A DNA stretch of 64,000 nucleotides, from sequence record NC_031928.1. One strand, 5' to 3'. Shown here piece after piece: positions 3,060 to 60,492 of this stretch (its first letter is position 1; each line of letters opens with the position of its first letter). The stretch comes from Escherichia phage WG01. The notes beneath the pieces were generated by a model, which worked only from the letters and a program-made list of their open reading frames with translations, was not told the DNA's origin and did no database searches. Both the position numbers and the translations under genes were made by a program.

Positions 3060-4877
3060 TTACGACATCCAGGCCTTACGGAGTTGTGGGTCATTACCAA
3101 GGAGCATTTCGAACTGTTCTTTCCAATCTTCAGGTAATTGAACCACATCAAATTTAGGGTCTTGAATCATTCGACGGTATTCAGCTTTCTCAAGAGAACC
3201 TAGTCCTTTGATATACCGAATAGAATGTTTTGGTAGAGAGTCCTTAGCTTTGGTATAACTAGGAACATCATAGAACCATTCTTGTTCTTTACCAACCTGG
3301 GCAATAATTACAGGTGTTTTACAGAAACGTACTCGGCCTTGTTCGAACAATTCAGGCCATTGACTAAAGAAGGCTAGCAATGATGGATAAATCGAGCCAG
3401 TACCATCCACATCGGCATCAGTCATAATAGCAATATTACGATAGTTAGTTTTCTCTGCAGGTTCACCAATAACCAATCCAGTGATTGCACAGATATCAAA
3501 TAGTTCTTTGTTCTTCATGATATCTGTTGCTGTCATTCCCCAGGTATTCATAACCTTACCACGTAATGGGTAACCGCCTTGAAGGTCTTTATTACGGACT
3601 TCAATGAAAGGACCCATAGCGGAATCACCTTCGGTTAGGAACAGGGTTGTATCAGCATCTTTGCCGTATAAGTTAGCTTTAATATGCTTATGGACCTTGG
3701 CTTTAGAAGCTTTCTTAGCGGCTTTAGTTTCAGCGGCCTTTTCAGCTGCTAATTTACGTGCTAAAGCAGCTTCAACGATAGGCATAATCAACCCATCGAC
3801 TTTAAGAATAGCTGTGGCAATTTTCTTAGCATCAATTTGGATATGATTACGAATCTCGCCAAAAGGAGATGTTAAGCGCTCTTTAGTCTGGGAATCAAAA
3901 CGCATGTTGCTCATATCACGAATGAACATCACCATCGTAAGGCATTCTTTAACACGAGCTTTAGTTACTTCAATTCCACGGTATTTCTTTTTAATACCTG
4001 GCAGAAGGTGCTCACAGATATCATCGAATACGCATTCAACGTGGTGACCGCCATTCTTGGTGTGGATATTGTTTACATAAGTCAGTTGACGAAATCCATC
4101 CGGAGAAGGAGTGAATGCCATCGAAACATTATCAGTTTCCTGGATTACAAAGTCTTCACCAAATTGCTTAGCATACTTTTTAAAGTTGCCATCTACTTTT
4201 TTACCATTAAAAGTAAATTGAATATCAGGATAAACTACGGCCAGAGTTTGCAATCGGTCTAATGTAATATCCAGATAAATTTGTGACAGGCTATTTTCTT
4301 CGAAATGATTAAAGTCTGGGGTGAATATAACCGAAGTACCCTTACCTTTAGATTTCTTAGTAGACCAACCTTTGTTTTCCATTCCGTTTGAACAGTTAAC
4401 AGTAATCTCATTCTCACCATCAGAGGTGATGCCTGTGAACAAAACAGAGAAGATATTAGTTAAACTACTACCGACACCATTCATGCCGCCTGTCTTACGC
4501 TCAGCGTCATCTCCAAAGTTACCACCTGCCTTTGGAATAGTCCATGCAGCTACAGGACCTGGAATCTGTTCACCATTTTGGTCGGTGACCATTGCTTGTG
4601 GAATACCACGACCATTATCAGAAACTGAAACCTGGTTATTCTTAATTTGAACATCAATTTTATTTGCGAATTTAAAATTGGTACGAATAGCTTCATCGAC
4701 AGAGTTATCAATGATTTCATCAATTAATTTAACCAGTCCAGGAACATAGTTTACCTGTGTAAAATTACCAAACAGGAATCGACCGTGAGCTTCATTAGCA
4801 CTTGAGCCAATATACATCCCACTACGTTTTTTGATATGTTCAATGTCGGACAGTACTTTAATTTCATTCTTAATCAT
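3060..4877 (-). CDS. 39: DNA topoisomerase II large subunit (fused gp39/gp60-type, GyrB-like ATPase)
   Basis: 605-aa ORF with GHKL ATPase N-terminus (LVKLIDEIIDNSVDEA, SDNGRGIP) and TOPRIM-like region; length fits the uninterrupted 39+60 fusion seen in T4 relatives. Confidence 0.9.
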   Translation of the reverse strand: MIKNEIKVLSDIEHIKKRSGMYIGSSANEAHGRFLFGNFTQVNYVPGLVKLIDEIIDNSVDEAIRTNFKFANKIDVQIKNNQVSVSDNGRGIPQAMVTDQNGEQIPGPVAAWTIPKAGGNFGDDAERKTGGMNGVGSSLTNIFSVLFTGITSDGENEITVNCSNGMENKGWSTKKSKGKGTSVIFTPDFNHFEENSLSQIYLDITLDRLQTLAVVYPDIQFTFNGKKVDGNFKKYAKQFGEDFVIQETDNVSMAFTPSPDGFRQLTYVNNIHTKNGGHHVECVFDDICEHLLPGIKKKYRGIEVTKARVKECLTMVMFIRDMSNMRFDSQTKERLTSPFGEIRNHIQIDAKKIATAILKVDGLIMPIVEAALARKLAAEKAAETKAAKKASKAKVHKHIKANLYGKDADTTLFLTEGDSAMGPFIEVRNKDLQGGYPLRGKVMNTWGMTATDIMKNKELFDICAITGLVIGEPAEKTNYRNIAIMTDADVDGTGSIYPSLLAFFSQWPELFEQGRVRFCKTPVIIAQVGKEQEWFYDVPSYTKAKDSLPKHSIRYIKGLGSLEKAEYRRMIQDPKFDVVQLPEDWKEQFEMLLGNDPQLRKAWMS

Positions 4878-11284: not shown

Positions 11285-11899
11285 TCAGTAAGAAAGAACG
11301 GAAAGATTCCAAATGGTGTAATTATTCCATTTAGGATTTCTCTCAATAGAGTCTACGCGCAGCGTAGTTCCCGCAGGGAACATCATCTCATCTTCATCAT
11401 TGATTAATTGTAAGTTTGCTACACGGGTAGATTCAGGAAATGCTCCTGGGAACTCTTCAGGGGGCGCAGCACATAACATTTTAAAGATTTCTTCCTGATA
11501 ATTGTACACAAATGGTGCATCATTAATACAAAAGATATTAAATGTGCCGTAGAAGTTATAAGATGCGAAATTCCTTGCCACGTTGAAGTCTTTAGAGAAG
11601 CTCATCACGCGGTCGAATTCAATTACCGCACCTACACACATTGTGGACTCTAGATACTTCATAGTCTTTTTAGATATGCCGCGATAGAGCTTATCAGGCA
11701 CTACAGAAGTCAGGTTCTTACGGATGATTTTGTTCAGAGTTTCCTGGATACAATCTGGTTTATTTTCCATGCACTGCCAGAGGGTACTCTGTTCTAAATC
11801 AGAATACACTTCATCAATTTCTATCTGAGTATTCTCACGGAAATCATCGCATTTGGCATTGTTGATAAATTCTGCTAATTTATGGCTCGGATATAACAT
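11285..11899 (-). CDS. modA: ADP-ribosyltransferase ModA-like
   Basis: 204 aa; R-S-E ART signature (LYRGI, MSFSKD, acidic DEDEMMF) and position next to srd. Confidence 0.7.
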   Translation of the reverse strand: MLYPSHKLAEFINNAKCDDFRENTQIEIDEVYSDLEQSTLWQCMENKPDCIQETLNKIIRKNLTSVVPDKLYRGISKKTMKYLESTMCVGAVIEFDRVMSFSKDFNVARNFASYNFYGTFNIFCINDAPFVYNYQEEIFKMLCAAPPEEFPGAFPESTRVANLQLINDEDEMMFPAGTTLRVDSIERNPKWNNYTIWNLSVLSY

Positions 11900-11912: not shown

Positions 11913-11954
11913 GTTGATAGAAAGATAGTACCACAAGCTTCCTTGCCTGTAAAC
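11913..11954 (-). promoter_or_regulatory. early promoter cassette (modA)
   Basis: GTTGATAGAAAGATAGTACCA core, gtaaac 11949-11954. Confidence 0.5.
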
Positions 11955-12523
11955 TAAAAATCCAACATTTTTAAATGAATTGTTTTATACTCGATTTCGT
12001 ACGGGTCTCTTTTGACGGTTTCGATTGCAACAATCTCAAACCGAGATAGGCTGGAGACCATGAACTCACATTCAGTTTCGACCATATCATAGAGGTCAAT
12101 ACGAGTTTCATCTATTTCAAGCTCATCCACATTCCCTGCAAGAACAAGGTCGATAGCATGATTGTAGTAGTCGAAAATGAACGGTGCATTCCTGAGACTT
12201 AAAATGGTTTTGGTTCCATATTCCCATGCCCCTGCGAACTGACGAGCCTGAGAGTATTGTGTACTAAAAGAAGTAACGCGACCAGGAGACCATTGACATC
12301 CTACTGAAAGGAGCTCTAATTGCTCAAGTTCTCTGGTAGTAATCCCGCGATATAACTCTACTGGAACCGCTGAAGTAACATGCTTGCGAACCAGTTTGTC
12401 GAGGTCGTAATGGAAGTTAGGGTCCTTTTTAGCATCCAGACATTTTTCTAAAAGATTCTGTTCGTGTTTTGAGAATTTGGAATTGATTCGGTCTTGATAA
12501 AGACATTTTTGTTCGATGTTCAT
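11954..12523 (-). CDS. modB: ADP-ribosyltransferase ModB-like
   Basis: 189 aa; R-S-E ART signature (LYRGIT, TSFSTQ, DELEIDE); paralog of neighbouring modA. Confidence 0.7.
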   Translation of the reverse strand: MNIEQKCLYQDRINSKFSKHEQNLLEKCLDAKKDPNFHYDLDKLVRKHVTSAVPVELYRGITTRELEQLELLSVGCQWSPGRVTSFSTQYSQARQFAGAWEYGTKTILSLRNAPFIFDYYNHAIDLVLAGNVDELEIDETRIDLYDMVETECEFMVSSLSRFEIVAIETVKRDPYEIEYKTIHLKMLDF

Positions 12524-14749: not shown

Positions 14750-15271
14750 TTAATAACCTCGGTCTTGGCGAGCGAAGTTTTCAGCATTTTTCAGATAATA
14801 CAGTTTAAAGATTTCTTCAGCAGTCAGTCCAAGACCTTGGAACATATTCAGAACAAAGTGCAGAATATCAATCATTTCGAATTTAATTTCGAGCTGGTCT
14901 TCAGGAGACAAATCGTTAATCAGGGTTTCACGACGTTCAGCATGTTGAGCTTTCCAAGGCTTCCATACAGCGCTCGCATCTTTTTCGCCATTGCTCATGC
15001 CACCAAGAGAAGTCAGAAGTTCGCGGAATTCATCATCAATATAATCTTTCTGATTGCGCAACCAATCAACAACTTCACCTGCAGTAGCCAAGTCATCAGG
15101 ATGACGGTTATATTCAGGTTTATCTTTAGCCAAACGGACCTGTAATGATTTCTGCATATCAAGCATAACCTGCAGAGGGTCTTTATCTTCGTGAATCAGA
15201 GCATTAAAATAAGCTTCCTCAGCTTTATCAACACCAGCAATAAGTTGTGAGCATTCGTTAAAGTGTGCCAT
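14750..15271 (-). CDS. 56: dCTP pyrophosphatase (MazG-like dCTPase)
   Basis: 173 aa, length and position between soc and 61 as T4 gp56. Confidence 0.8.
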   Translation of the reverse strand: MAHFNECSQLIAGVDKAEEAYFNALIHEDKDPLQVMLDMQKSLQVRLAKDKPEYNRHPDDLATAGEVVDWLRNQKDYIDDEFRELLTSLGGMSNGEKDASAVWKPWKAQHAERRETLINDLSPEDQLEIKFEMIDILHFVLNMFQGLGLTAEEIFKLYYLKNAENFARQDRGY

Positions 15272-52104: not shown

Positions 52105-52384
52105 CTTCCACCTTCATTAGTTTTACATAACGCTCTCCGATGGCCCGACCTTCAATTGAGCACGCTTCTATAGTCCGACAACTTGAAATCTTCCAGGAAG
52201 CCGTAACATAGGCCCAATAGTCTTCGGAGGCCTTTACGCTGGGTCTACTCATTTGCGCATAAACAGGCATCGCACTACTAGCAAATGCATCCATCAATTT
52301 ATCATTGGCACCATTTGCTAGTGAAACTGTAGGGCTTAAACATCCCGCCATAAGGATACAAGCCGCTGTACGGAAAATATCCAT
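52091..52384 (-). CDS. rI: lysis-inhibition antiholin RI-like
   Basis: 97 aa; N-terminal signal/SAR-like segment; C-terminal SSCRTIEACSIEGRAIGERYVKLM resembles recalled T4 RI; located next to tk. Confidence 0.55.
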   Translation of the reverse strand: MDIFRTAACILMAGCLSPTVSLANGANDKLMDAFASSAMPVYAQMSRPSVKASEDYWAYVTASWKISSCRTIEACSIEGRAIGERYVKLMKVEDEVQ

Positions 52385-52473
52385 ACAAAAGTCCTTTGTT
52401 GTTTTATACTATTTGCCTTTCGGCCTTAACCGATAGCGATTACCAAAAGCTAAAGCTCTACGGTTAGTATTAT

Positions 52474-52481
52474 TATTTATA
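52474..52481 (-). promoter_or_regulatory. late promoter-like TATAAATA (rI region)
   Basis: Minus-strand TATAAATA ~90 nt upstream of rI-like gene. Confidence 0.35.
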
Positions 52482-52755
52482 GCTTTTTAAGCTTACGACA
52501 ATAAGAATAGAACACGTCGTTAAAATTATATTCAACCCAATTCCTCTGTATAGGCGAGGTAATGGAAAGCATATAATGCGCTTTAATTAAATCCATCCCG
52601 TTTTTATTAGGACACTCTTTATTATTAGCATTATACGTCGCTGCTACAACCTCTATCTCTCTTTTGTAAGCCACATCATCCATGATAGGCGAAAGAACAA
52701 TATAAGAAATAGCCACAGCGAACGCTAGAATTAAAATCTTTGAATTTAGGTCCAT
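52477..52755 (-). CDS. small membrane protein (rI.1 position)
   Basis: 92 aa; N-terminal TM helix. Confidence 0.45.
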   Translation of the reverse strand: MDLNSKILILAFAVAISYIVLSPIMDDVAYKREIEVVAATYNANNKECPNKNGMDLIKAHYMLSITSPIQRNWVEYNFNDVFYSYCRKLKKL

Positions 52756-52762
52756 AATACCC

Positions 52763-53335
52763 TCAACTCGTTATTTCTATCCAGTGCTTCCTGCACAATG
52801 ACACGTAAGAATCGTTGCCACCTATAGAAACTTGGGCGCCGTCCTTAATTGCGATACCATCCTGGACCCTAGCAGTCATAGTAGCTTTACGGCCACAATG
52901 GCACACACCTTTGTACTCAACGAGTTTATCTGCCGTAGCGAGTAATTCAGCAGAGCCAGGAAACAGTTTACCCTGAAAATCAGTTCTTAGCCCATAGCAC
53001 ATAACTGGAACATTATAATTGTCTACTATCTTTGCCAGTTGTTTTATCTGTGCAGGTTCTAAGAACTGTGCTTCATCCACAAATACACAGTGGATATCTT
53101 TTTGAGATTCAGCCCAACGATAGAACTCGTATAGGTCCATATCCGGAGTCACGGCATTAGCCTCTTGACTAATCCCTATACGAGACGAAATGCTATGGCT
53201 TGATTCTCTATTGTCTATCGCAGGCTTTAAAAGGAGTACGCCCATACCGCGTTCTTTGTAGTTATGAGCCGCTGTTAGCAATGAAGCGGTCTTCCCAGAA
53301 TTCATCGCCGCATAGTGAAAATAAAGTTGAGCCAT
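52763..53335 (-). CDS. tk: thymidine kinase
   Basis: 190 aa; Walker A AAMNSGKTASLL, zinc-ribbon CHCG...C at C-terminus. Confidence 0.85.
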   Translation of the reverse strand: MAQLYFHYAAMNSGKTASLLTAAHNYKERGMGVLLLKPAIDNRESSHSISSRIGISQEANAVTPDMDLYEFYRWAESQKDIHCVFVDEAQFLEPAQIKQLAKIVDNYNVPVMCYGLRTDFQGKLFPGSAELLATADKLVEYKGVCHCGRKATMTARVQDGIAIKDGAQVSIGGNDSYVSLCRKHWIEITS

Positions 53336-53344
53336 ATTACCTTC

Positions 53345-53551
53345 TTAAAGACTATTTACATAAGCAATTAATTCATTTTCTTTCTCATCAAATCGATTAG
53401 CAAATTCTTCCAGATGGTCGGCATCTATAGGGCCGTATTCATCATAAAAGGCGTTTGCTTCTGTATGCTCGTCCAAAAGCTCATGGATAAGCTCAAACAA
53501 TTTATCTTTCTGTTCTTTACTCAGACTCATAACCATTGCACCTTTAAGCAA
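53345..53551 (-). CDS. hypothetical acidic protein
   Basis: 68-aa ORF. Confidence 0.4.
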   Translation of the reverse strand: MLKGAMVMSLSKEQKDKLFELIHELLDEHTEANAFYDEYGPIDADHLEEFANRFDEKENELIAYVNSL

Positions 53552-53739
53552 TATTCTTCTACATGCTGTTTACGTTTATTTTTATCTATAAAAGTATATT
53601 CAACATATTCACCAATATACCATTTATCGGTGTTGTGTTGACTTTTTATAGGGCATTTAGTTACTCGTGTTTCGGTCCAGCGTCGAATAATTTCCGCTTT
53701 GTTTTTAGGGTCAAACGGATGCGGGTAATGGGCTTTCAT
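53527..53739 (-). CDS. hypothetical protein
   Basis: 70-aa ORF. Confidence 0.4.
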   Translation of the reverse strand: MKAHYPHPFDPKNKAEIIRRWTETRVTKCPIKSQHNTDKWYIGEYVEYTFIDKNKRKQHVEEYCLKVQWL

Positions 53740-54178
53740 AATCTACCACCACTAAATTAATATCAGGAGTAAACAAATTAATCAATTGGTAAACCTTGTC
53801 CCAATCACCACCAGCAATACCACAACCAATGCGAGGAATATAAATTCTTGGTTTAAACAAAAGACCTTTTGCGGTACGGTTTAATTCTATCATACAGTTT
53901 ACTAAAGCACCATAATCAAGATTAGGGCCTGGTTCGTATTGGGTATATAAATTATAGCAAATTTGGCCATTATTACCTGTAGCTTGAGTAAACGTGCCAA
54001 GTTTTGCCAAATTGCCTAAATAAGTAGTTTTATCGATAGCGAGAATAGGCGGATAAGCCTTAGCCAATTGCCCAGCTACACCTGAACCCATTGTGTGGAA
54101 ACAGTTGCACCCGTGTGCAACATTATTACCTTGAAGAAACAGGGCGACGATATCGCCCTTAATATAATCAATAATCAT
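53711..54178 (-). CDS. macro-domain protein (ADP-ribose binding/processing)
   Basis: 155 aa; GNNVAHGCNCFHTMGSGVAGQLAKAYP macro-domain nucleotide-binding motif. Confidence 0.7.
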   Translation of the reverse strand: MIIDYIKGDIVALFLQGNNVAHGCNCFHTMGSGVAGQLAKAYPPILAIDKTTYLGNLAKLGTFTQATGNNGQICYNLYTQYEPGPNLDYGALVNCMIELNRTAKGLLFKPRIYIPRIGCGIAGGDWDKVYQLINLFTPDINLVVVDYESPLPASV

Positions 54179-54531
54179 TTAGAGTTTAATCCTCGATTGT
54201 ATGAGTCAACGAGTCTGTCTACCATAGACGCGCACATTTCTTTGTACTTTTTATCAGATGGAATACATTCAGTAACGTTTAGACGTTGCTCGTATCTTTT
54301 AGAAAGAGTTTTCTCTTTCATTCGGCGATGCTCTACGTCATTCTGGCCATCTTTAAAAGCAGCTGTGATTTTTGAACTGAATTCGATAATGCATTCAGTA
54401 TTGCTCGGATGACAATAATCTTTTGCTGTACGGGTAGCATACTCGACAATTGAATTATTACTATCATCAACTTGTGACGCTAATACTCCCGGAGCAATCA
54501 ACATAAGCGCTATAGTCATCTGCTTAATCAT
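54175..54531 (-). CDS. secreted hypothetical protein
   Basis: 118 aa; N-terminal signal peptide. Confidence 0.45.
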   Translation of the reverse strand: MIKQMTIALMLIAPGVLASQVDDSNNSIVEYATRTAKDYCHPSNTECIIEFSSKITAAFKDGQNDVEHRRMKEKTLSKRYEQRLNVTECIPSDKKYKEMCASMVDRLVDSYNRGLNSK

Positions 54532-55071
54532 TTAATACACCGCCTCAAACATCTTTTTAGATTTTAGGTAATTGGCCTTTTCTAGAACTTCAGAAGCATA
54601 TTTACTGCCTGCTTTGGCGTTCCAGCCCGCATTATAAGAAGCAATCGCTTTTCTCAGGTCACCTTTGTGAACATCAATCCAATAAGACAGTTCAATGTAG
54701 GCCCAAGAGGCACTGTTCTGTCGTTTTTGGACCATACGAATTATTTCTTTGTCTGACATCTTCCAACCTACCTGTTGAACACGACTTCTTAACGTAGGCA
54801 AGTAATTTTGGAACATGCCATAAGCATGGTGCTTATCTTTATTTAAACCCTGATTAATTCCGGCAGATGATTCCTGCCATAGTAATCCGGCCATGATATA
54901 TCCTAATCCTTTTTGATTAGGGTTTTCTTTGAACTTTCCCGACTTTTGGTATTGTTCACCGAAAGCATATGCATAATGCAAATTGTCGAGTTGCTCACTG
55001 TTGAAAGTAGGCTCTACGCTATAGGCAGACATACTAACTGTCAATAGTAAAGTGGCTAATACTTTTTTCAT
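54532..55071 (-). CDS. secreted lytic transglycosylase-like protein
   Basis: 179 aa; signal peptide; SLT-like catalytic region LWQESS and later YNAG. Confidence 0.55.
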   Translation of the reverse strand: MKKVLATLLLTVSMSAYSVEPTFNSEQLDNLHYAYAFGEQYQKSGKFKENPNQKGLGYIMAGLLWQESSAGINQGLNKDKHHAYGMFQNYLPTLRSRVQQVGWKMSDKEIIRMVQKRQNSASWAYIELSYWIDVHKGDLRKAIASYNAGWNAKAGSKYASEVLEKANYLKSKKMFEAVY

Positions 55072-55083
55072 GAGACCTCATTA

Positions 55084-55542
55084 TTAAAGATAGATTACTT
55101 TCGTGCTGGTTTTACCTTCTAAACGTTTAGAGTTAACAAATGCCATACGACATTTAAGGGAATATCCTTTATCAGGATGTTTACGGTCTACAGTCATACC
55201 TAGCCATAAGGTTTTATCGGTAATTTCGAGACGCAATGGGCGATACACTTTACCAGGAATGATTTCGGCTTCTACATCAGGCAGAGGTTCCTGGATTAAA
55301 AATTCATGAATTTCTTTAACATGGTTATGGAGTTGCTTGAATAAAGCAAAAACGTATTTTTCGTCGATTTCACGTTGGATAGCACGGTCCAACAAGTGAT
55401 TAGAGTACTTAATAAAGAAGGCTGGGACTCCGCTCTTAATGGCGGCTTTTTTGATGGACGCATTCAGTTCACGGAATTCGGTTTCGAACTGACGACGTAA
55501 TTTATTGCGGCGGATGAATACTTCTGAATTAATTTCTGACAT
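55084..55542 (-). CDS. regB: RegB site-specific endoribonuclease
   Basis: 152 aa from ATG 55542; EVFIRRNKLRR...KYSNHLLDRAIQREIDE...RLEITD closely matches recalled T4 RegB. Confidence 0.85.
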   Translation of the reverse strand: MSEINSEVFIRRNKLRRQFETEFRELNASIKKAAIKSGVPAFFIKYSNHLLDRAIQREIDEKYVFALFKQLHNHVKEIHEFLIQEPLPDVEAEIIPGKVYRPLRLEITDKTLWLGMTVDRKHPDKGYSLKCRMAFVNSKRLEGKTSTKVIYL

Positions 55543-55557
55543 TTTGTAATCTCCTGT

Positions 55558-55599
55558 AGTTGATAGGTTTATAGTATCATACCTACAGGAGATGTAAAC
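55558..55599 (-). promoter_or_regulatory. early promoter cassette (regB) with inverted repeat CTCCTGTAG/CTACAGGAG
   Basis: GTTGATAGGTTTATAGTATCA core, gtaaac 55594-55599. Confidence 0.55.
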
Positions 55600-55603
55600 T
55601 GCT

Positions 55604-55882
55604 TTAGTACTTTTCTTCCGGTTGGAAAACGGAACGACACGCCCACATACTAGCTTCTTTAAGACGGTCAATTGCATTACGAATCTGGGTAATGCGTTCA
55701 TGAGCCTGGTCTAGTTCTTGTTCAGAAACCTCTTCGGTATCTAAGTTCATATAATAGGTAACATGTTCTTCTTCTAGAGCTTTAAACATCAGCCCTAACC
55801 GAATTTCGGCATCTTTAATAGCATTCACTTTACCGATTTTATCGTCGGTATGTGGTTTGTAACCCTTGATATCTTCAATCAT
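55604..55882 (-). CDS. hypothetical small helical protein (vs.3/vs.4 position)
   Basis: 92-aa ORF immediately upstream of regB. Confidence 0.45.
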   Translation of the reverse strand: MIEDIKGYKPHTDDKIGKVNAIKDAEIRLGLMFKALEEEHVTYYMNLDTEEVSEQELDQAHERITQIRNAIDRLKEASMWACRSVFQPEEKY

Positions 55883-56097
55883 TTCACTTCCTCGCCAGTT
55901 GCGATATCATATTCTACCAAACGAAGGCCTTCAGTCCAACCTTGCACGGAGATATAGGTAGTCGGGTAAATCATTTCTTTACCGTTCCACCGACCGCCAT
56001 CCCAGACTTCCAGAAAGTCTTGTTCACCTGGTCCATTAAGCCATTCAACAAATCTTTTCAGAGCTTCTTCAGAACCTTCAATTGTCAATTTAGACAT
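55879..56097 (-). CDS. hypothetical protein
   Basis: 72-aa ORF, ATGA-coupled. Confidence 0.45.
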   Translation of the reverse strand: MSKLTIEGSEEALKRFVEWLNGPGEQDFLEVWDGGRWNGKEMIYPTTYISVQGWTEGLRLVEYDIATGEEVK

Positions 56098-56383
56098 ATT
56101 TTTTCCAATCAGAAATCATATGAATCTCTTGGTCATAAGTCAAGAGACTACGAGCAATAATACCCTTACAAGGCCCTGAGATGAACTCGAGAGTGAAGTA
56201 AGGAACCTGTTTCATTAATCGGATACTAGGAGCATGACATCTAAAACGAGAGCCCTTAAAGGGCCCTGTCATGAATACATATTCCAATGGGTAGAAATAA
56301 GCATATTCGAAATTTGCAGTAAGGTCCTCTCTTCGAACCTTACGTGAGAAATAACAGAACTCAAAAAGTTCTTCATCAGTCAT
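56090..56383 (-). CDS. hypothetical protein
   Basis: ORF-track ORF trimmed to ATG 56383. Confidence 0.4.
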   Translation of the reverse strand: MTDEELFEFCYFSRKVRREDLTANFEYAYFYPLEYVFMTGPFKGSRFRCHAPSIRLMKQVPYFTLEFISGPCKGIIARSLLTYDQEIHMISDWKKYV

Positions 56384-56910
56384 CATTGCATTCCTATCAC
56401 AAAGAACAGAGGCAAAGGCTTGTCGCCTTGGCACATAAATTTATTAATCATTACCTGGTAAGCTTCATAGAACTTATCCATCGCTGGAAGGCGCATTGGC
56501 TCTTCGATAATAATCAATAATCGAGTAACAGATAGTCCACGATACTTATGGAAATTGTCTTCATCAAGGAAACTGCGCACAGTATCATAGACAACAAAAC
56601 CAGGACCTTCGACTTGGAGATGTGGGTGTGCCTTAGAAACCTGTTTTATTACATTACAAATTTCTCGCGAGCGATGCGAAGAACTCGACATAACAATCAC
56701 ATCATTACCCTTGGAAACCCAATCAGCGGCGAACTGAGCAAGGGCACTTGTTTTACCTGTTTGGCGTCCGCCATCAAGTCGAAGAGTACCAAACTCTTGC
56801 ATTCTTGAAGCAGGTTCATACCAGGTATATTGGTCTGAGTCTAAACGTTCAATGGCGCGTTCAGCGAAGGCGTGCATTAAGGTTAGATAAATGGGAGTTA
56901 AAAATTTCAT
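56383..56910 (-). CDS. P-loop NTPase-like protein
   Basis: 175 aa from ATG 56910 (AAAGGAAATACT RBS); Walker A-like GGRQTGKTSA. Confidence 0.5.
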   Translation of the reverse strand: MKFLTPIYLTLMHAFAERAIERLDSDQYTWYEPASRMQEFGTLRLDGGRQTGKTSALAQFAADWVSKGNDVIVMSSSSHRSREICNVIKQVSKAHPHLQVEGPGFVVYDTVRSFLDEDNFHKYRGLSVTRLLIIIEEPMRLPAMDKFYEAYQVMINKFMCQGDKPLPLFFVIGMQ

Positions 56911-57059
56911 AGTATTTCCTTTGAGGGCCGTTCCTTGGCACATTAATTCGTCCCTTTCTGCATTTACCCATTACCGCACTTGGGCTCGACCTTATTACAG
57001 GTTGGCGGGAGTCCCTCACAGAATTGTGAGGTCCAGGTTGCTCCCATTTAAAATGCTAA

Positions 57060-59813: not shown

Positions 59814-60263
59814 TCAAAAGAGTGAATCCAAAACCTTAAACATCGACGGGCCCATGACATATTCCCATTGTGGCCGTTTAATCAAGGCAAAAGCATCGAA
59901 TTCAGGAATAGTACGACCATCAGGGAACGTATGGTAAGCCGTACATTTGCAATCCTTGAACTGCTCGTGTTCCACAGGAACTGTATATAAGAACAGATGT
60001 AGATTCTTATTGCTTGAATATTTGAACTCACCTAGGTCTTTCAGGAACGCAGGATCGTATGCTGTGAATCCAATCTCTTCTTCGGTTTCGCGCATTGCCG
60101 CTTGAATGGGCTCTTCGCCTGGTTCGACATGACCCTTAGGAATGTCCCATTTATGACGCATATTCTCTGGATTACGAGAGCCTGTTACACGGCCCATGAC
60201 CAGTTCTTTATCAACGGTCATGAATAAAATACCGGCAGATAGTTCTTTCACTTTCTTACTCAT
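59814..60263 (-). CDS. nudE: Nudix hydrolase
   Basis: 150 aa from ATG 60263; Nudix box GHVEPGEEPIQAAMRETEEEIG; position next to e. Confidence 0.75.
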   Translation of the reverse strand: MSKKVKELSAGILFMTVDKELVMGRVTGSRNPENMRHKWDIPKGHVEPGEEPIQAAMRETEEEIGFTAYDPAFLKDLGEFKYSSNKNLHLFLYTVPVEHEQFKDCKCTAYHTFPDGRTIPEFDAFALIKRPQWEYVMGPSMFKVLDSLF

Positions 60264-60492
60264 CGTCTCGTTCCCATGATTGTTTAAAAATATCTTGCAT
60301 AATAATTTGAAGTCTATTTTCTGATGATGGACTTTCACTATCAGACACTTGAAGCATATAGTCACCAATAGGACAGAACATATCCATATCGCTTTCTAAG
60401 TCTTCTTTAATTTTCTCTTCTGATGTTCCGGTATCATAGGAATACAGATAAGAATCACATGACTCAGATTTAATATAAATTGCAATGCTCAT
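60256..60492 (-). CDS. hypothetical acidic protein
   Basis: 78-aa ORF. Confidence 0.4.
   Translation of the reverse strand: MSIAIYIKSESCDSYLYSYDTGTSEEKIKEDLESDMDMFCPIGDYMLQVSDSESPSSENRLQIIMQDIFKQSWERDDE

What the first reader, a model, noticed from the sequence alone, without database searches (positions are those of the whole stretch)
53711..54178. Macro-domain protein in a genome that also encodes two ADP-ribosyltransferases and a Nudix hydrolase
The 155-aa protein has a clear macro-domain motif (GNNVAHGCNCFHTMGSGVAGQL). With ModA/ModB (R-S-E motifs) and NudE in the same window, the phage carries writer, reader/eraser and nucleotide-hydrolase functions for ADP-ribose. The macro domain could reverse host or phage ADP-ribosylation or process NAD-derived defence signals.
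Basis: partly seen in the sequence, partly recalled or inferred. Interest (0 to 1): 0.5.

Follow-up and report, generated by a model that had tools for sequence, protein, structure and literature searches.

The report
T4 Tk.4/AdfM macrodomain ortholog, anti-DarTG2
The ORF is a real macrodomain protein, but it is the ortholog of phage T4 gene tk.4, recently named adfM and shown to protect T4 against the bacterial DarTG2 defence that ADP-ribosylates DNA, so it is a known counter-defence gene and not a partner of the phage's own ADP-ribosyltransferases.

Summary
Window 53711-54178 (-) encodes a 155-aa protein carrying the quoted motif. It passes the Pfam Macro threshold, folds confidently (pLDDT 92.7), and matches TARG1, Poa1p, BT1257 and DarG macrodomains best. 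ModA, ModB and NudE are also in the window.

The window is a Dhakavirus (Bp7/JS10/PSD9-like, T4 family). The gene is the syntenic ortholog of T4 tk.4 (53% identity; order regB-vs.1-vs-tk.4-tk.3-tk.2-tk). A 2025 preprint found tk.4 as the single T4 transposon hit against DarTG2. A clean knockout sensitised T4 to DarTG2, and the gene was renamed adfM.

The most likely mechanism is hydrolysis of thymidine-linked ADP-ribose that DarT2 places on phage ssDNA.

One detail that the preprint passages I read do not mention: the Tk.4 family has an invariant Gln (Q80) where DarG, TARG1 and PhiKZ AdfM have their catalytic Lys, and it lacks TARG1's Asp. This matches Streptomyces SCO6735, an orphan macrodomain shown to cleave dT-ADPr DNA using an essential Gln.

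A writer/eraser link to ModA/ModB/NudE is not supported.

Verdict: already known, low interest.

The parts
53711..54178 (-). tk.4 / adfM ortholog: 155-aa stand-alone macrodomain protein (16.8 kDa, pI 6.0)
   Evidence: ORF. Pfam Macro 32.8 bits against cut-off 22. PHROG 335 at 1.4e-66. 53% identity over the full length to T4 Tk.4. 100% identical to a protein of Shigella phage PSD9. AlphaFold2 pLDDT 92.7.
54104..54115 (-). Codons H22-G23-C24-N25 (the AHGCN motif), covering the active-site Asn and the neighbouring His
   Evidence: H22, G23 and N25 are invariant in 39 family members and in 80 of 80 bacterial relatives, although that motif was part of the search pattern. They align with AHVCN of SCO6735, where the N27S mutant almost completely lost activity. 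The PhiKZ AdfM N23A mutant has reduced activity.
53939..53941 (-). Codon Q80: a Gln at the position of the catalytic Lys of TARG1 (K84), DarG (K80) and PhiKZ AdfM (K78)
   Evidence: Q80 is invariant in alignment A1 and present in 79 of 80 bacterial relatives, and it was not part of the search pattern. It aligns with TARG1 K84 in the profile-versus-PDB alignment and with PhiKZ gp104 K78 in hhalign. SCO6735 Gln85 occupies this position and is essential.
53801..53827 (-). Codons G118-W126 (GCGIAGGDW), the phosphate-binding loop; A122 sits where TARG1 has catalytic D125
   Evidence: G118, G120 and W126 are invariant. The loop is near-identical in BT1257 and SCO6735 (PRIGCGLAGG.W). A122 aligns with TARG1 D125.
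54190..54194 (-). Shine-Dalgarno-like GAGGA, 11 nt upstream of the tk.4 ATG
   Evidence: Read directly from the sequence.
54175..54178 (-). ATGA overlap of the vs stop codon with the tk.4 start codon, suggesting translational coupling within the leftward gene string
   Evidence: ORF coordinates and sequence. T4 has the same 4-nt overlap.
54175..54531 (-). vs ortholog (valyl-tRNA synthetase modifier), the upstream neighbour
   Evidence: Synteny with the Bp7 and T4 annotation.
53527..53739 (-). tk.3 ortholog (DUF7202), the downstream neighbour; it overlaps the tk.4 3' end by 29 nt
   Evidence: Pfam PF23832 at 2.5e-37 over the full length; Bp7 annotation.
52763..53335 (-). tk (thymidine kinase), the synteny anchor
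   Evidence: ORF; annotation of Bp7 and of the other best-matching phages.
55604..55882 (-). vs.4 ortholog with an Acb2/Tad1 hairpin domain: a second counter-defence gene in the same gene string, context only
   Evidence: Pfam PF24729 at 4.1e-15; Bp7 annotates it as vs.4.
   Evidence: PHROG 832 at 1.3e-44; LYRGIS / SFS / EDE motifs; Bp7 modA.
   Evidence: PHROG 832 at 2.8e-37; LYRGIT / SFS / ECE motifs; Bp7 modB.
59814..60368 (-). nudE (Nudix hydrolase). The listed ORF starts at a TTG; the true start is probably an internal ATG near 60263
   Evidence: PHROG 1185 at 1.2e-72; Pfam NUDIX at 1.3e-14; Bp7 nudE is 450 nt.

Best explanation
The ORF is the Dhakavirus ortholog of T4 tk.4 (adfM). It is a stand-alone macrodomain enzyme that acts as an orphan antitoxin against the bacterial DarTG2 defence system.

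Proposed steps:
1. On infection, the host toxin DarT2 ADP-ribosylates thymidines in single-stranded phage DNA and blocks replication.
2. The phage macrodomain binds the ADP-ribose moiety through its conserved phosphate-binding loop (GCGIAGGDW).
3. It hydrolyses the ribose-thymine bond, releasing ADP-ribose and restoring the DNA.

The active site is of the SCO6735/BT1257 type: a Gln (Q80) held in place by Asn (N25). It is not the Lys type found in DarG, TARG1 and PhiKZ AdfM. Catalysis is therefore expected to be substrate-positioning and water-mediated, without a Lys-Schiff-base intermediate.

Basis of each part:
- Shown here: the fold, family membership, orthology and synteny, and active-site residue identities.
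- Shown by others: T4 tk.4 is needed to resist DarTG2 (genetic evidence, preprint). SCO6735, a Gln-type macrodomain, and PhiKZ AdfM, a Lys-type one, each remove dT-ADPr from DNA in vitro.
- Inferred: that this ortholog has the same activity, substrate and biological role.
For: Macrodomain identity:
- Pfam Macro is above its threshold.
- The AlphaFold2 model has pLDDT 92.7.
- The only hit in a defence-system library is the N-terminal macrodomain of DarG (PADLOC 3.2e-6; NCBIfam DarG 2.6e-4).

Orthology:
- 53% identity end to end with T4 Tk.4, E=1e-62.
- The gene order regB-vs.1-vs-tk.4-tk.3-tk.2-tk is identical in Bp7 and T4, including the ATGA overlap between vs and tk.4.

Function of the ortholog:
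- tk.4 was the single significant T4 transposon hit in the presence of DarTG2, and a clean knockout sensitised T4 to it (bioRxiv 10.1101/2025.11.20.689424).
- T4 lacking adfA and adfN stays resistant to DarTG2, which had predicted a further factor (PMC11825919).

Active site:
- H22, N25, Q80, G118, G120 and W126 are invariant across 39 family members of 37-97% identity.
- Q80 aligns with TARG1 K84, and A122 with TARG1 D125.
- Q80 aligns with PhiKZ AdfM K78.
- SCO6735 carries Gln85 at that position; the Q85A and Q85E mutants are inactive and N27S is nearly inactive. The enzyme cleaves dT-ADPr DNA and protects against DarT (PMC9411070).

Expression: the T2 Tk.4 protein is detected in infected cells.
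Against: - No biochemistry exists for any Tk.4-type protein. The T4 evidence is genetic and comes from a preprint.
- This ortholog is only 53% identical to T4 Tk.4, and its phosphate-binding loop differs (GCGIAGGDW against T4's GAGIGKGNW).
- SCO6735 Lys34, which is important for DNA substrate positioning, is Ser/Ala in the Tk.4 family.
- I never obtained a direct alignment of the central region with SCO6735. The Q80-Gln85 equivalence is transitive, via TARG1 K84 (plus PMC9411070).
- The protein is mildly acidic (pI 6.0), which is not what one would naively expect of a DNA-binding enzyme.
- Similarity to DarG profiles is weak (24.9 bits, against 132.9 for PhiKZ AdfM).
Confidence: 0.72

Rival explanations
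1. Eraser for the phage's own ADP-ribosylation. The macrodomain would remove ADP-ribose, or RNA chains attached by ModB, that Alt/ModA/ModB place on RNA polymerase and other host proteins. This would give a timed writer/eraser cycle, with NudE clearing the released ADP-ribose.
For: ModA, ModB and NudE are all encoded in the same window. Macrodomains of this class are ADP-ribosylhydrolases. SCO6735 and TARG1 also act on protein-linked ADP-ribose.
Against: From established knowledge, Alt/ModA/ModB modify arginine, and TARG1/DarG-class macrodomains act on acidic-residue esters and on thymidine, not on arginine N-glycosides. The genes are about 42 kb and about 6 kb away, in the standard T4 layout and not in one operon. 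T4 tk.4 mutants persisted in a library grown on K-12 and were depleted specifically with DarTG2. The macrodomain family also occurs in many phage groups beyond the T4 family, though I did not check those phages for Mod-type transferases. It also occurs as an orphan gene in at least 477 bacterial genome loci.
Confidence: 0.06
2. Small-molecule enzyme, as the database label 'phosphatase' implies: an ADP-ribose-1''-phosphate phosphatase (Poa1p-like) or an O-acetyl-ADP-ribose deacetylase, with a nucleotide-metabolic role and no counter-defence role.
Against: From established knowledge, no source of ADP-ribose-1''-phosphate is known in T4-infected E. coli, because T4 tRNA repair uses Pnk/Rnl and not Tpt1. 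The genetic phenotype of the T4 ortholog is specific to DarTG2. The label comes from historical family naming, not from an assay. The sequence match to Poa1p covers mainly the N-terminal 44-95 residues.
Confidence: 0.07
3. Broader or different counter-defence target. The macrodomain would reverse ADP-ribosylation of RNA or protein by other defence transferases, or degrade ADP-ribose-derived immune signals (Thoeris-type), with DarTG2 being only one of several targets.
Against: T-even phages, which carry tk.4, remain strongly restricted by the mRNA ADP-ribosyltransferase system CmdTAC (PMC11618068), so Tk.4 does not neutralise that enzyme. No data link Tk.4 to Thoeris. The HIDEN-SEQ passages I read report tk.4 only in connection with DarTG2.
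Confidence: 0.1
4. Non-catalytic antitoxin. The protein would neutralise DarT2 mainly by binding and occluding it, with hydrolysis dispensable.
For: Catalytically dead SCO6735 (Q85A), a stand-alone macrodomain of the same Gln type, still inhibits DarT strongly by interaction. The phage ICP1 factor AdfB works purely by binding DarT (PMC11481870).
Against: The active-site residues H22, N25 and Q80 and the phosphate-binding loop are invariant across phage and bacterial relatives, which argues for selection on catalysis. The protein lacks the C-terminal DarT-binding domain of DarG: it is 155 aa and matches only positions 3-142 of the 329-position DarG profile.
Confidence: 0.05

Closest known systems
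T4 Tk.4 = AdfM (anti-DarT factor Macrodomain), bioRxiv 10.1101/2025.11.20.689424
   Same: Same length (155 aa) and 53% identity end to end. Same position between vs and tk.3, with the same start/stop overlap. Same PHROG 335. Same invariant H22, N25 and Q80.
   Different: The phage genus differs (Dhakavirus against Tequatrovirus). The phosphate-binding loop is GCGIAGGDW here and GAGIGKGNW in T4. There is a 29-nt overlap with tk.3 here and a 4-nt overlap in T4. No experiment has been done on this ortholog.
Streptomyces coelicolor SCO6735 (PDB 5E3B), an orphan ALC1-like macrodomain that cleaves thymidine-linked ADP-ribose on DNA (PMC9411070)
   Same: Both are stand-alone macrodomains without a cognate DarT. 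Both have the AH.CN motif, a Gln in place of the catalytic Lys, no TARG1-type Asp, and the PRIGCG[IL]AGG.W loop. The family profile hits 5E3B at 1.6e-16.
   Different: SCO6735 is bacterial and housekeeping or protective, not viral. Its Lys34, a DNA-positioning residue, is Ser32 here. Sequence similarity is low outside the two motif regions, where phmmer aligns only 3-44 and 107-134.
PhiKZ gp104 AdfM (chimallivirus DarG2-like antitoxin, Cell Rep 2026, PMC13309987)
   Same: Both are phage-encoded stand-alone macrodomains that counter DarTG2. For PhiKZ AdfM, removal of dT-ADPr from an oligonucleotide was shown in vitro, and the equivalent Asn (N23) matters.
   Different: It belongs to a different subfamily, a true DarG-type with Lys78 (FPTK motif). 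It scores phmmer 9e-25 to Mtb DarG and 132.9 bits on PADLOC DarG, against 24.9 bits for this protein. It is only 18% identical to the Tk.4 profile and is imported into the phage nucleus. The shared name AdfM therefore covers two separate acquisitions.
DarG antitoxin of DarTG2 (T. aquaticus and M. tuberculosis; PDB 5M31, 5M3E, 5M3I)
   Different: DarG has catalytic Lys80, a C-terminal DarT-binding domain (about 330-340 aa in total) and is encoded next to darT. This protein has Gln80, no second domain and no toxin neighbour.
Human TARG1/OARD1 and yeast Poa1p (ALC1-like macrodomain class)
   Same: They are among the best structural matches and share the AH motif and the G.G loop.
   Different: The TARG1 Lys84/Asp125 dyad is Gln80/Ala122 here. 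Poa1p is an Appr-1''-p phosphatase and is 20-23% identical.

Membership tests
Macro domain superfamily (Pfam PF01661) | Sequence match above the curated gathering threshold over most of the domain | tested here: met
   32.8 bits against cut-off 22; residues 22-132 cover profile positions 2-117 of 118.
Macro domain superfamily (Pfam PF01661) | Three-layer alpha/beta/alpha macro fold | tested here: met
Macro domain superfamily (Pfam PF01661) | Binds ADP-ribose | not testable with these tools
   Only inferred, from the conserved phosphate-binding loop GCGIAGGDW and Asn25.
ALC1-like / TARG1-DarG-Poa1p macrodomain class | Closest structural and profile neighbours are members of this class and not MacroD, PARG or viral Mac1 types | tested here: met
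T4 Tk.4 / AdfM orthologous group | Full-length similarity to T4 Tk.4 | tested here: met
   53% identity, 72% positives, 155 of 155 residues, E=1e-62; PHROG 335 at 1.4e-66.
T4 Tk.4 / AdfM orthologous group | Conserved genomic position (vs - tk.4 - tk.3 - tk.2 - tk) | tested here: met
   Bp7 and T4 annotations aligned to the window. tk.3 and tk.2 neighbours confirmed by Pfam DUF7202 and DUF7438.
T4 Tk.4 / AdfM orthologous group | Confers resistance to DarTG2 | not testable with these tools
   Shown only for T4 itself.
SCO6735-like Gln-type dT-ADPr-DNA hydrolases | Gln at the position of the DarG/TARG1 catalytic Lys, plus the supporting Asn | tested here: met
   Q80 aligns with TARG1 K84 and PhiKZ K78. 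The paper places SCO6735 Gln85 at that same position. N25 and H22 align with SCO6735 N27 and H24. The Q80-Gln85 link is transitive, not from a direct alignment.
SCO6735-like Gln-type dT-ADPr-DNA hydrolases | Hydrolyses thymidine-linked ADP-ribose on ssDNA | not testable with these tools
   Needs a gel-shift de-ADP-ribosylation assay.
DarG antitoxin (NCBIfam NF048014 / PADLOC PDLC02990) | Score above the equivalog cut-off | tested here: not met
   20.4 bits against cut-off 250. PADLOC gives 24.9 bits, covering only profile positions 3-142 of 329.
DarG antitoxin (NCBIfam NF048014 / PADLOC PDLC02990) | Catalytic Lys (K80 in T. aquaticus DarG) | tested here: not met
   Gln80 is at that position and is invariant in the family.
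DarG antitoxin (NCBIfam NF048014 / PADLOC PDLC02990) | C-terminal DarT-binding domain and an adjacent darT gene | tested here: not met
   The protein is 155 aa, macrodomain only. Its neighbours are vs and tk.3.

The most novel reading that the evidence does not exclude
The Tk.4-type macrodomain is not a DarG copy. It would be a separate, Gln-type lineage shared with hundreds of orphan bacterial macrodomains, and its real substrate range would extend beyond DarT2 products. For example, it might also erase ADP-ribose placed on nucleic acids or proteins by other, still uncharacterised defence transferases, or trim the phage's own ModB-type modifications. That would make it a general ADP-ribose eraser, which could explain its presence in more than 2700 phage genomes.
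Probability: 0.12. Interest if true: 0.5.

Novelty: already known. Interest (0 to 1): 0.15.

Why it matters
It matters little as a discovery. The gene is a recognised member of the T4 accessory set. An identical protein is already in GenBank (Shigella phage PSD9), and its T4 ortholog has a published name and phenotype (preprint).

Two practical points remain.
- Database labels for this family ('phosphatase', 'hypothetical protein') are out of date and should read anti-DarT2 macrodomain (AdfM/Tk.4-like).
- Two unrelated macrodomain lineages now share the name AdfM: the T4 Tk.4 type with a catalytic-site Gln, as in SCO6735, and the PhiKZ gp104 type with the DarG Lys. Phages therefore appear to have recruited DNA de-ADP-ribosylases at least twice, and mechanistic conclusions drawn from DarG or PhiKZ AdfM should not be transferred uncritically to Tk.4-type proteins.

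Tried and rejected
- I tried to fetch the SCO6735 gene from genome contigs using the 43-aa fragment printed. The Q80-Gln85 equivalence therefore rests on TARG1 K84 as the common reference (plus PMC9411070).
- I used the single genome-contig scan with the family alignment instead. It returned bacterial orphan relatives. Clustering their neighbours found no recurrent partner and no DarT, so there is no hidden operon logic to exploit.
- I suspected that the vs.8 ortholog (56383-56943) might be the NADAR anti-DarTG1 factor. Pfam gave no hit, and the literature places adfN at T4 gene 30.3. Rejected.
- ORF 14750-15271 was first considered a candidate for gene 61.2/adfA. It is the gp56 dCTPase.
- The promoter and terminator scan of 52300-56200 gave counts within shuffle expectation (15 against 12.2 +/- 2.8, and 5 against 3.2 +/- 1.9). 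No dedicated promoter for tk.4 can be claimed.
- A literature search for 'AdfM' alone was swamped by journal-abbreviation matches.
- The writer/eraser hypothesis with ModA/ModB was considered and rejected on linkage chemistry, gene distance and the T4 knockout phenotype.

Full report

Yes. The minus strand of window 53711-54178 carries an ATG-started ORF of 155 codons. The protein passes Pfam's curated threshold for the Macro domain: 32.8 bits against 22, covering almost the whole profile. It belongs to PHROG 335 at 1.4e-66.

The companion genes are also present. ModA (11285-11899) and ModB (11954-12523) both hit PHROG 832 and carry R / S-x-S / E-x-E motifs. NudE lies within 59814-60368.

**2. 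What is it?**

The 3.4 kb around the ORF is 94-98% identical to Shigella phage PSD9 and to Escherichia phages Bp7, JS10, QL01 and others. Bp7 is classified as Dhakavirus, Tevenvirinae. Bp7's annotation names the gene tk.4 and gives the order regB - vs.1 - vs - tk.4 - tk.3 - tk.2 - tk. T4 has the same order.

The protein is 100% identical to a PSD9 protein. It is 53% identical over all 155 residues to T4 Tk.4. As in T4, the vs stop codon and the tk.4 start codon overlap as ATGA, and a GAGGA lies 11 nt upstream. tk.3 and tk.2 were confirmed independently by their Pfam DUF families. This is therefore the positional ortholog of T4 tk.4.

Relatives occur in 2731 phage records, including phages of Escherichia, Klebsiella, Salmonella, Pseudomonas, Vibrio, Acinetobacter and Aeromonas.

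**3. What is known about the ortholog?**

A November 2025 preprint (HIDEN-SEQ, bioRxiv 10.1101/2025.11.20.689424) screened a T4 transposon library on E. coli expressing DarTG2. [quoted passage not shown] A clean knockout sensitised T4 to DarTG2, and the authors renamed the gene adfM, for anti-DarT factor Macrodomain. They proposed that it removes ADP-ribose from DNA.

This filled a gap left by earlier work: T4 lacking adfA and adfN remained fully resistant to DarTG2, which suggested a further factor (PMC11825919).

Independently, a chimallivirus macrodomain, PhiKZ gp104, was also named AdfM. It was shown in vitro to remove thymidine-linked ADP-ribose from an oligonucleotide (PMC13309987).

The T2 Tk.4 protein is detectable in infected cells.

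**4. Mechanism and the one detail that differs from the DarG picture**

The family alignment has 16 invariant positions, including H22, N25 and Q80, with G118, G120 and W126 in the GCGIAGGDW loop.

In the profile-to-TARG1 alignment, Q80 sits opposite the catalytic Lys84 and A122 opposite Asp125. I checked the numbering by counting the chain. In hhalign against PhiKZ gp104, Q80 sits opposite Lys78 of the FPTK motif. The Tk.4 family thus lacks the catalytic Lys of DarG, TARG1 and PhiKZ AdfM.

The same situation is described for Streptomyces SCO6735:
- Gln85 occupies the Lys position.
- The Q85A and Q85E mutants are inactive, and the N27S mutant almost completely lost activity.
- The enzyme cleaves dT-ADPr DNA efficiently and protects cells from DarT.
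- A water-mediated mechanism, with Gln positioning the distal ribose, was proposed (PMC9411070).

Tk.4's AHGCN and PRIGCGIAGGDW match SCO6735's AHVCN and PRIGCGLAGGTW.

Consistent with a separate lineage, DarG profiles score this protein weakly: PADLOC 24.9 bits and NCBIfam 20.4 bits against a cut-off of 250. PhiKZ gp104 scores 132.9 bits on PADLOC and hits Mtb DarG at 9e-25.

My best explanation is that this is a Gln-type, SCO6735-like DNA de-ADP-ribosylase working as an orphan antitoxin against DarT2. The fold, orthology and residue identities are shown here. The DarTG2 phenotype and the enzymology come from relatives. Transferring them to this protein is inference. One caveat is that I could not retrieve the SCO6735 sequence for a direct alignment of the central region, so the Q80-Gln85 equivalence is transitive.

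**5. Bacterial relatives**

A scan of one genome per bacterial species found at least 477 loci encoding relatives. The 80 best are 34-43% identical and come from Rhodobacteraceae, Desulfobacterales, Verrucomicrobia, Planctomycetota and others.

In those 80, positions outside the search patterns are conserved: Q80 in 79 of 80, K59 in 78 of 80, D49 in 79 of 80 and Y78 in 79 of 80.

Clustering all neighbouring ORFs within 3 kb found no recurrent partner. The only clusters were housekeeping genes shared among closely related taxa. These are orphan macrodomains like SCO6735, not DarTG operons.

**6. Rivals**

(a) Eraser of the phage's own Alt/ModA/ModB marks.
- Those enzymes make arginine-linked ADP-ribose, which this macrodomain class is not known to cleave (established knowledge).
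- The genes are about 42 kb and about 6 kb away, in the standard T4 layout.
- T4 tk.4 insertion mutants persisted on K-12 and were depleted specifically with DarTG2.

(b) Appr-1''-p phosphatase or OAADPr deacetylase, as the database labels imply. Structural similarity to Poa1p is real. However, there is no known substrate source in T4-infected E. coli, and the label is historical.

(c) A broader counter-defence eraser. This is possible given the promiscuity of the class. However, T-even phages remain restricted by the mRNA ADP-ribosyltransferase system CmdTAC.

(d) Binding-only inhibition of DarT. Catalytically dead SCO6735 inhibits DarT. However, invariance of the catalytic residues argues for hydrolysis.

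**7. Novelty and verdict**

It is a conserved, annotated T4-family gene whose ortholog has a name and a phenotype. The proposed ADP-ribose writer/eraser/hydrolase system is a coincidence of the T4 gene complement.

The residual points of interest are modest. The Tk.4 lineage is Gln-type and distinct from the DarG-type PhiKZ AdfM, so the shared name covers two independent recruitments. Database labels ('phosphatase') are misleading. Interest 0.15.

**8. Seen in passing**

- The vs.4 ortholog (55604-55882), 1.4 kb upstream in the same gene string, carries the Acb2/Tad1 hairpin domain. This stretch therefore holds at least two counter-defence genes.
- tk.4 overlaps tk.3 by 29 nt here, against 4 nt in T4.
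- A GC-rich hairpin with a T-run lies inside codons 7-13 of tk.4. Such sites are not enriched in the region.

Noticed in passing
window 55604-55882 (-): The vs.4 ortholog (92 aa) carries the Pfam Acb2/Tad1 hairpin domain (PF24729, E=4e-15). That domain marks phage sponges for cyclic-nucleotide immune signals (anti-CBASS/anti-Thoeris). It lies 1.4 kb upstream of tk.4 in the same leftward gene string, so this stretch holds at least two counter-defence genes.
   Followed up: partly
window 53711-53739 (-): The 3' end of tk.4 (its last 9 codons plus stop, a low-confidence tail in the model) overlaps the start of tk.3 by 29 nt. T4 has only a 4-nt overlap at this junction.
   Followed up: partly
window 54141-54159 (-): A GC-rich 8-bp hairpin (AGGGCGAT ATC GTCGCCCT) followed by a T-rich run lies inside codons 7-13 of tk.4. 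The number of terminator-like sites in the region is within the shuffle expectation (5 against 3.2 +/- 1.9).
   Followed up: no
loci L006-L085 (bacterial genomes, match at about 4001-4450 of each): At least 477 bacterial genome loci encode orphan macrodomains of the same Gln-type subfamily (HGCNC...KLG...NLYTQ...GxGLAGGDW, 34-43% identity). Among the 80 examined there was no conserved neighbouring gene and no recurrent toxin-like partner; the neighbours were not individually screened for DarT. Their role in bacteria is unstudied apart from SCO6735.
   Followed up: partly
L005:12518-13006 (PhiKZ gp104) versus window 53711-54178: The name AdfM is now used for two unrelated macrodomain lineages. 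PhiKZ gp104 is DarG-type with a catalytic Lys (132.9 bits on the PADLOC DarG model). T4 Tk.4 and this protein are Gln-type (36 and 24.9 bits).
   Followed up: yes
window 53711-54178 (-), database annotation: RefSeq and PHROG 335 label this family 'phosphatase', and some records 'hypothetical protein'. The phosphatase label is inherited from Appr-1''-p naming and does not reflect the published anti-DarTG2 phenotype.
   Followed up: yes
window 55084-55701 (-) and 59814-60368 (-): The mechanical ORFs for regB (205 aa) and nudE (184 aa, TTG start) are longer than the annotated genes in Bp7 (459 nt and 450 nt). Domain matches begin at residues 57 and about 27-43, so the true starts are probably internal ATGs near 55542 and 60263.
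   Followed up: partly
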